This document shows positions 21,586 to 39,696 of a stretch of 64,000 nucleotides of DNA, one piece after another. The notes beneath the pieces were generated by a model that had not been told where the DNA came from, did not search any database, and saw nothing but the letters and a program-made list of their open reading frames with translations. The number at the start of each line of letters is the position of its first letter. The first letter of the stretch is position 1. A program made the position numbers and the translations under genes. Source of the DNA: Paraspadella gotoi (lineage: Eukaryota > Animalia > Chaetognatha); assembly GCA_051294375.1 (NCBI GenBank), contig CM119267.1, positions 6,866,550-6,930,549 on the forward strand. The letters are read 5' to 3'.

Positions 21586-39696
<18,111 letters not shown>

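What the first reader, a model, noticed from the sequence alone, without database searches (positions are those of the whole stretch)
33642..33649. Twister P1 is a 6-8-nt palindrome with no room for a loop: possible dimer-dependent cleavage
Seen: the segment between the T1 triplet and UAA is TGCCGGTA (12.2k, 33.6k), TGTCGGCA (16.2k), TCCTAGGG (36.9k), CGGCCG (61.8k) and GGCGCT (39.8k). The sequences differ but are all self-complementary with G-U allowed, and an intramolecular hairpin would have a 0-2-nt loop. Known: minimal hammerheads of Penelope-like and satellite repeats use a palindromic stem III and cleave as dimers. Inference: P1 forms between two ribozymes (e.g. the 5' and 3' LTR of one transcript), so solo LTRs in host introns may be weakly active while full elements are processed. 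Caveat: some twisters tolerate a very short P1.
Basis: partly seen in the sequence, partly recalled or inferred. Interest (0 to 1): 0.85.

Follow-up and report, generated by a model that had tools for sequence, protein, structure and literature searches.

The report
Pair-forming twister ribozymes in retrotransposon ends
Short mobile elements in an animal genome carry a tRNA-like promoter followed by a twister-type, predicted self-cutting RNA whose closing stem is shrunk to a 6-8-base palindrome, so two copies likely pair to cut well, a trick so far described for hammerhead ribozymes.

Summary
All six segments sit between the T1 triplet and UAA of type-P5 twister motifs and are self-complementary through their centre. 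Only 33.6k and 16.2k have flawless cores; 12.2k has one P2 mismatch and the other three are damaged. Four motifs lie in 242-258-nt solo LTR-like elements with 4-bp target-site duplications and tRNA-type promoter boxes. Two other-run contigs show a polypurine tract before the LTR. This is a Helenus-like Pol III mini-retrotransposon with a retrozyme-like ribozyme, here a twister. The short P1 is unusual: 38 of 38 phage permuted twisters have 15-27-nt hairpins and 1 of 38 is palindromic. The central pair, which no hairpin can form, is Watson-Crick in all five families (CG, CG, UA, GC, CG). Pairing between two copies is therefore the best reading. Strict dimer dependence is not shown: P1 is known to be dispensable in twisters, 1-2 pairs plus a 4-nt loop do fit, the outer pair is broken in many family-A copies, and no two-LTR element, PBS or RNA was seen. 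Verdict: new variant of a known kind; dimer-assisted cleavage about 50%, strict dependence about 25%.

The parts
33535..33791 (-). Family A solo LTR-like element, 257 nt, TGTGG...CCATA, 4-bp TSD CTTT
   Evidence: TSD scan; contig loose ends at 33535 and 33791/33792 with diverse flanks
33764..33791 (-). 5' hairpin at the LTR start, shared in form by families A, B, C, E
   Evidence: sequence, folds
33724..33735 (-). tRNA-type A box (TGGCTGAGCAGG), predicted Pol III promoter
   Evidence: motif scan, position
33682..33692 (-). tRNA-type B box (GGTTCGATCCC)
   Evidence: motif scan, position
33587..33667 (-). Type-P5 twister motif: P5 5' 33663-33667, P2' 33655-33658, GA, T1' CGG 33650-33652, P1 segment, UAA, P2 33635-33638, T2 GC 33633-33634, P3 33611-33632, P4/L4 33596-33609, P5 3' strand
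   Evidence: strict descriptor hit, coordinates; Rfam twister-P1 only 17.6 bits, below gathering
33642..33649 (-). P1 segment TGCCGGTA, 8-nt palindrome with two G-U pairs
33640..33641 (-). Predicted cleavage site, between U (33641) and A (33640)
   Evidence: position in the UAA motif; site known from twister literature (PMC8501958 passage); not tested
12095..12340 (+). Family A solo LTR, 246 nt, TSD CTAT; P1 TGCCGGTA at 12226-12233; one P2 mismatch
16149..16406 (-). Family B solo LTR, 258 nt, TSD AGAC; intact core; P1 TGTCGGCA at 16258-16265; T1 CCA/TGG
   Evidence: this boundary was second-ranked in the TSD scan; chosen by alignment to family A
36802..37043 (-). Family C solo LTR, 242 nt, TSD AGAT; P1 TCCTAGGG at 36907-36914; A box only; T1 partner damaged in this copy; P2 pairs 2 of 4 in the family
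   Evidence: ends confirmed by loose ends at 36802 and 37043
39748..39880 (-). Family E element, 133 nt, possible TSD CATT, no tRNA boxes, broken P2; P1 GGCGCT at 39820-39825
   Evidence: boundary weakly supported
61790..61965 (-). Family D tRNA-head plus twister copy (approximate ends); P1 CGGCCG at 61858-61863; T1 TCC/GGA; LTR status not shown
62040..62185 (+). Degenerate family D copy, head to head with the former (approximate ends); P1 CGGCCT at 62117-62122; T1 TCT/AGA
61536..61650 (+). Third, more decayed family D copy (approximate ends); P1 position CGGACG at 61605-61610

Best explanation
These are twister motifs inside tRNA-promoter LTR-like elements, and their palindromic P1 segment likely pairs with the same segment of a second copy, which would speed predicted self-cleavage when two LTRs lie in one transcript. 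Shown: the motif, the LTR-like ends and TSDs, the promoter boxes, the palindrome and its covarying centre. Inferred steps: (1) Pol III starts at the 5' LTR boxes and, with no TTTT in the LTR, reads through the twister and the internal region into the 3' LTR. (2) The 3' half of ribozyme 1 (UAA-P2-P3-P4) and the 5' half of ribozyme 2 (P5-P2'-GA-T1') form an ordinary type-P1-like twister closed by a 6-8-bp P1; because both LTRs carry the same sequence, that helix can exist only if the segment is a palindrome. The reciprocal halves form the second active site. (3) Two cuts release a unit-length RNA without terminal redundancy that is ligated to a circle, as in plant retrozymes, and reverse-transcribed by a Gypsy-type helper. 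(4) A solo LTR or the circle holds one segment, has at most a 1-2-bp P1, and would cleave more slowly, though probably not zero.
For: Central pair Watson-Crick in 5 of 5 families in three different states, CG/UA/GC, and next pair WC or G-U in 5 of 5; these four bases cannot pair inside a hairpin. A, B and C align end to end, so CG versus UA is a double change between homologues. Family C: no variant >=2% in P1 in the three runs that cover it. Family A, run X1: of the inner six bases only position 2 (1.9%, turns G-U into A-U and keeps pairing) and position 4 (1.2%, CpG transition) vary above 1%. Control: 88 of 164 phage/prokaryote loci held an intact permuted core, giving 38 distinct P1 segments, all 15-27 nt, 1 of 38 self-complementary through the centre; Rfam Twister-P5 consensus has 8 bp plus a 4-nt loop. 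Self-duplex -8.3 to -11.0 versus hairpin +2.9 to +5.8 kcal/mol. Unconstrained two-copy fold of the 33.6k core is the strand-swapped dimer. PPT-like GGGGATCC directly 5' of the LTR in one contig each for families A and C implies two-LTR elements exist. Precedent: palindromic stem III hammerheads act as dimers (PMC6765202 passage; PMC7229834 passages).
Against: P1 is dispensable: mini-twister cleaves at almost wild-type rate (PMC5408937); P1 length, energy and imperfections did not affect cleavage in CHiTA (PMC11662667), though only type-P1 forms were tested there. The outer pair is among the most variable sites of family A: position 1 changes to A in 72 contigs of run X1 but position 8 to U in only 35, so at least 37 of 91 position-1 variants are mispaired (unphased). 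The dimer gain is partly generic: permuted P1 segments also gain about -8.5 kcal/mol, and the native -15.1 and -13.7 rank only in the best 3.2% and 10.4% of 500 permutations. The two-copy MFE of family B is not the swapped dimer. Only 2 of 6 window copies have a flawless core; family C pairs 2 of 4 in P2. No two-LTR copy or PBS was seen. Two decayed family D copies are not full palindromes.
Confidence: 0.5

Rival explanations
1. The ribozyme works as a monomer. P1 has shrunk to a linker with 1-2 pairs and a tetraloop because P1 is dispensable, and the palindromic look is an inherited relic or a by-product of small stable loops (N-NN-N' loops with a closing pair).
For: P1 deletion is tolerated. 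A 6-8-nt linker can close with 1-2 bp and four loop bases. The outer pair is often mismatched in family A. Only three distinct central states exist, so chance for the central pair alone is about 0.25 cubed, 0.016 (arithmetic).
Against: A hairpin gives no reason for the two central bases to be Watson-Crick in 5 of 5 families; ordinary permuted twisters show this in 1 of 38; forced hairpins are unstable.
Confidence: 0.25
2. The palindrome does pair between RNAs, but for packaging or reverse transcription, not catalysis: it is a dimerisation signal like the palindromic kissing sites of retroviral and Ty RNAs (recalled), placed at the 3' end of the cleaved unit RNA, while the ribozyme cleaves alone.
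For: Explains central covariation together with P1 dispensability. Family C keeps a perfect inner palindrome although its P2 pairs only 2 of 4. The segment ends one base before the cut, so it would be exposed at the RNA end or circle junction.
Against: The palindrome sits exactly and only where P1 must form, in register in all five families; a packaging signal has no need to be there.
Confidence: 0.2
3. The palindrome is a DNA-level feature (protein site, or repair that perfects short inverted repeats) and the ribozymes are mostly dead.
For: Four of six window copies have core defects and none reaches Rfam gathering scores.
Against: The sequence differs between families while symmetry is kept, unlike a protein site; T1 covaries in five forms (CCG/CGG, CCA/TGG, CGG/CCG, TCC/GGA, TCT/AGA), showing selection on the RNA fold.
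Confidence: 0.05

Closest known systems
Type-P5 twister ribozyme (Rfam RF02684; clan CL00120)
   Same: Strand order P2'-GA-T1'-P1-UAA-P2-GC-P4/L4, both pseudoknots, conserved bases.
   Different: P1 is a 6-8-nt palindrome rather than an 8-bp hairpin with a loop; carries P3 and varied T1; scores below Rfam gathering; lies in a eukaryotic LTR.
Helenus / TRIMp3 (Kojima 2024, PMC10886601)
   Same: tRNA-type A and B boxes inside a short LTR, 4-bp TSD as in animal Helenus, purine tract before the LTR, many solo LTRs.
   Different: A twister follows the B box and there is no T run; the paper's text has no 'twister' or 'palindrom' and I saw no twister by eye in supplement parts 1 and 5-9 of 11. PBS and internal region not seen here.
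Plant LTR retrozymes (Cervera 2016, PMC4918200)
   Same: Self-cleaving ribozyme in each LTR, 4-bp TSD, PPT, solo LTRs; model of double cleavage, circularisation and Gypsy-helper reverse transcription.
   Different: Twister instead of type III hammerhead; animal host; internal Pol III-type promoter; circular RNA not shown here.
Dimer-acting hammerheads of Penelope-like elements and amphibian retrozymes (PMC6765202; PMC7229834)
   Same: A helix next to the cleavage site reduced to a palindrome in a repeated element; axolotl monomers cleaved 6% and 22% in an hour and dimers much more.
   Different: Different ribozyme class. Hammerhead stem III is needed for catalysis (established knowledge) whereas twister P1 is dispensable, so the analogy is weaker than it looks.
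Twister T-variants of Schistosoma Perere-3 (PMC8501958)
   Same: Twister in a retrotransposon with an altered P1 that modulates activity.
   Different: Those are type-P1 motifs at the 5' end of non-LTR elements, with P1 completed by the target site; no palindrome or dimer is mentioned (0 hits).

Membership tests
Twister ribozyme, type P5 | Permuted order with P2, P4 and closing P5 | tested here: met
   33.6k and 16.2k pass a strict descriptor; P5 CTGGC/GCCAG
Twister ribozyme, type P5 | Pseudoknots T1 and T2 with covariation | tested here: met
   T1 in five complementary forms; T2 GC/GC in 12.2k, 16.2k, 33.6k, 36.9k, 39.8k, 61.86k
Twister ribozyme, type P5 | P1 as a stable hairpin | tested here: not met
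   6-8 nt, hairpin energy positive versus 15-27 nt in 38 controls
Twister ribozyme, type P5 | Rfam gathering score | tested here: not met
   no twister hit at gathering; twister-P1 24.2 bits at 36840-36910 and 17.6 bits at 33575-33645
Twister ribozyme, type P5 | Site-specific self-cleavage at U/A | not testable with these tools
   needs an in vitro assay
Helenus (TRIMp3) | tRNA-derived A and B boxes in the LTR | tested here: met
   both boxes in 12.2k, 33.6k, 16.2k; A box only in 36.9k; none in 39.8k
Helenus (TRIMp3) | 4-bp TSD (animal type) and TG...CA-like ends | tested here: met
   CTAT, CTTT, AGAC, AGAT; ends TG...TA, a form also present among published Helenus LTRs
Helenus (TRIMp3) | Polypurine tract before the 3' LTR | tested here: inconclusive
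   one contig in run X5 and one in run X11; majority flank of 27 X1 contigs starts alike but agreement is 0.42
Helenus (TRIMp3) | Two LTRs around a short non-coding internal region with a PBS | tested here: inconclusive
   all window copies are solo; no PBS in the loose-end tables shown, which were cut; no genome held
LTR retrozyme | Type III hammerhead in the LTR | tested here: not met
   the ribozyme is a twister; no hammerhead Rfam hit
LTR retrozyme | Abundant unit-length linear and circular RNA | not testable with these tools
   only assembled contigs were available
Dimer-acting ribozyme (works-like claim) | Two-copy RNA cleaves faster than one-copy RNA | not testable with these tools
   folding models favour the swapped dimer but partly generically

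The most novel reading that the evidence does not exclude
A high-copy family of Pol III-driven 'twister retrozymes' in an animal, in which cleavage is strictly gated by pairing of the two LTR copies: the first natural twister that needs a partner, switching itself off in solo LTRs and in the circular RNA.
Probability: 0.25. Interest if true: 0.85.

Novelty: new variant of a known kind. Interest (0 to 1): 0.65.

Why it matters
Twister P1 is conserved in nature yet dispensable in the test tube, which is an open puzzle. Here P1 is cut to a minimum but keeps self-complementarity that only a second copy can use, giving a small, direct test of what P1 is for. It would show that twisters and hammerheads converged on the same copy-counting device in repeated elements, link Helenus-type Pol III TRIMs to the retrozyme life cycle, and mean that such twisters are missed by Rfam thresholds although one genome appears to hold very many. 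A two-copy-gated twister would also be a useful part for RNA circularisation tools.

Tried and rejected
No whole genome is held, so the genome-wide P1 alignment could not be made. The family-specific pattern gave 2 chance bacterial hits in metagenome contigs and 0 in viral contigs. A P3-order pattern gave 1 hit without a paired P2. A scan of prokaryote genomes for short (3-13 nt) P1 gave 9 hits, none with an intact core. No RNA holder listed among 17 runs; this says nothing on expression. Summed contig depth (about 3e5 to 1.6e6 over the elements versus 100-260 for single long contigs in run X1) is not a copy number and is used only as 'highly repeated'. Outer-pair variants could not be phased. 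The repeat finder was swamped by microsatellites. MAFFT misaligned families D and E in the core, so pair counts were taken from descriptor output, not from that alignment. No reverse transcriptase, gag or integrase domain among the 145 longest of 270 complex ORFs. The 317-aa ORF search found no homologue; the host was not identified beyond 'animal' (MIEAP and olfactomedin exons). The exons flanking 33.6k have no Pfam hit. The mini-twister paper and the dimer-hammerhead paper (Lunse) are not held and are cited second-hand; the CHiTA supplement could not be read and may hold P1 cases that bear on the claim. Three look-ups of earlier findings returned nothing. Rejected: SINE or MITE reading of families A-C (fixed 4-bp TSD, defined ends, PPT); the idea that LTR pairs in the window form one element (12.2k and 33.6k are inverted and each has its own TSD).

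Full report
Observation. Positions 33642-33649 read TGCCGGTA on the minus strand. Rfam misses them at gathering level (best 24.2 and 17.6 bits). The set is weaker than six intact ribozymes: a strict descriptor passes 2 (33.6k, 16.2k); 12.2k is a sister of 33.6k with one P2 mismatch; 36.9k, 39.8k and 61.86k have core defects. Two further decayed copies (62117, 61605) are imperfect palindromes.

What the elements are. Four motifs lie in 242-258-nt elements that start TGTGG, end in TA and have 4-bp duplications CTAT, CTTT, AGAC, AGAT. The TSD scan offered other boundaries for 16.2k and 36.9k; ends were fixed by alignment and, for 33.6k and 36.9k, by contig loose ends with diverse flanks. Run X1 laid 1,677 contigs on family A and 3,078 on family C, so both are highly repeated. 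A tRNA-type A box lies 75-86 nt and a B box 41-43 nt upstream of P1 (B box absent in 36.9k), and none of the four LTRs has a TTTT run. One contig in X5 (family A) and one in X11 (family C) show GGGGATCC directly 5' of the LTR start, like the purine tracts of animal Helenus. No PBS or two-LTR copy was seen, and no genome is held. This matches Helenus/TRIMp3 (PMC10886601: abstract, main text parts 1-4 of 6, supplement parts 1 and 5-9 of 11 read) with a ribozyme in the LTR as in plant retrozymes (PMC4918200 passages). The host is an animal. The 33.6k copy lies in an inferred phase-0 GT-AG intron, 33126-34527, antisense to the gene.

Is the palindrome special? Any P5-type twister must close P1 on itself, so outer complementarity is expected. 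The test is the four central bases, which cannot pair in a hairpin. They are CCGG, UCGG, CUAG, GGCC and GCGC: centre Watson-Crick in 5 of 5, next pair WC or G-U in 5 of 5. Chance is about 8e-4 for three independent families, 0.003 by permuting each segment's letters, and about 0.016 if only the three distinct central dinucleotides count (my arithmetic); all post hoc. As control I fetched 164 phage and prokaryote loci with four permuted-order patterns plus one P3-order pattern; 88 had intact P2 and P4, giving 38 distinct P1 segments, all 15-27 nt, 1 self-complementary through the centre. The patterns covered only three T1 types. Within families, C shows no P1 variant at 2% or more in three covering runs. 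In A (run X1) the inner six bases vary at two sites only, one of which improves pairing, but the outer pair is among the most variable sites: position 1 to A 12.7% (72 contigs) or G 1.3% (19), position 8 to C 6.0% (52) or U 2.4% (35). The similar totals (91 and 87) hint that both ends change together, and up to 54 could be compensatory, but at least 37 must be mispaired. In those copies a hairpin keeps one G-U pair while a duplex keeps six pairs; this fits either a duplex or an idle P1.

Energetics. Self-duplexes are -8.3 to -11.0 kcal/mol and forced hairpins +2.9 to +5.8 for 7 of 7 segments. A strand-swapped dimer beats two monomers by 15.1 (A) and 13.7 (B) kcal/mol, and is the unconstrained two-strand fold for A but not for B. 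Much of this is generic: permuted segments gain 8.5 on average, and the native ones rank in the best 3.2% and 10.4% of 500. Pseudoknots and concentration are not modelled.

Mechanism. In a transcript with two identical LTRs, the 3' half of ribozyme 1 and the 5' half of ribozyme 2 form a normal type-P1-like twister whose P1 pairs segment 1 with segment 2; identical segments can pair only if palindromic. This explains position, symmetry and free sequence in one step (inference). Double cleavage would release a unit RNA for circularisation, and a circle or solo LTR with one segment would be slower. The same logic is documented for hammerheads (PMC6765202 passage; PMC7229834 passages). The main objection is that twister P1 is dispensable: almost wild-type rate without it (PMC5408937 passages), no effect of P1 flaws among 1,948 scored twisters (PMC11662667 sections 31-33; type-P1 only; supplement unread), while PMC8501958 calls P1-less cleavage inefficient and shows P1 sequence modulating activity (passages). 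I therefore favour dimer-assisted (0.5, of which strict dependence about half) over monomer with relic palindrome (0.25), a packaging dimerisation signal (0.2; the retroviral analogy is recalled) and a DNA-level feature (0.05).

Novelty. Ten full-text searches listed no paper on a palindromic or dimeric natural twister, or on a twister inside an LTR or tRNA-derived repeat; one search showed 20 of 292 hits, and the library lacks most subscription papers and Repbase. Passages of PMC7761336, PMC10085705 and PMC13725137 add none. The parts are all known; their combination appears not to be. By eye, two published wasp Helenus LTRs hold an unremarked type III hammerhead after the B box, which suggests that ribozyme-bearing Pol III LTRs are a wider group.

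Verdict. Observation confirmed; interpretation partly supported. New variant of a known kind, interest 0.65; strict dimer dependence 0.25, worth 0.85 if true.

Noticed in passing
PMC10886601 supplement DataS1, part 9: Helenus-2_SyJa-LTR and Helenus-2_SyUm-LTR: By eye, both wasp LTRs hold a type III hammerhead core (GUC, CUGAUGA, GAAAC, complementary loops 1 and 2) just after the tRNA B box; the paper's text does not mention it. Not run through any tool.
   Followed up: partly
window 61750-62209: A foldback (68% between arms) holding two family D tRNA-head-plus-twister copies head to head with shared flanks; a third copy lies at about 61536-61650.
   Followed up: partly
window 22834-28523: Nested inverted repeats: 22834-24080 with 25901-27116 (90%), 23960-24576 with 27955-28523 (84%), 25304-25775 with 27142-27581 (81%); possibly a foldback element.
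   Followed up: no
window 4610-4700, 11727-11817, 12040-12094, 16004-16094, 61125-61174: An AT-rich repeat of about 90 nt; one copy abuts the 12.2k LTR and one lies about 55 nt from the 16.2k LTR, perhaps a preferred insertion target.
   Followed up: no
window 39748-39880: The 133-nt family E element keeps the 5' hairpin and twister but has lost the tRNA boxes.
   Followed up: partly
window 50866-50938: tRNA-Asp(GTC) gene between exons of a MIEAP-domain gene (50040-52465).
   Followed up: no
window 44824-45777 (-): 317-aa open frame that looks like a rhodopsin-type receptor by eye but has no homologue at E<=0.001 and no convincing Pfam hit.
   Followed up: partly
L026, L007, L050: Phage contigs carry two or three Twister-P5 ribozymes within about 1.2 kb.
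   Followed up: no
window 44357-44482: A 126-nt AT-rich hairpin (84% self-complementary), MITE-like.
   Followed up: no
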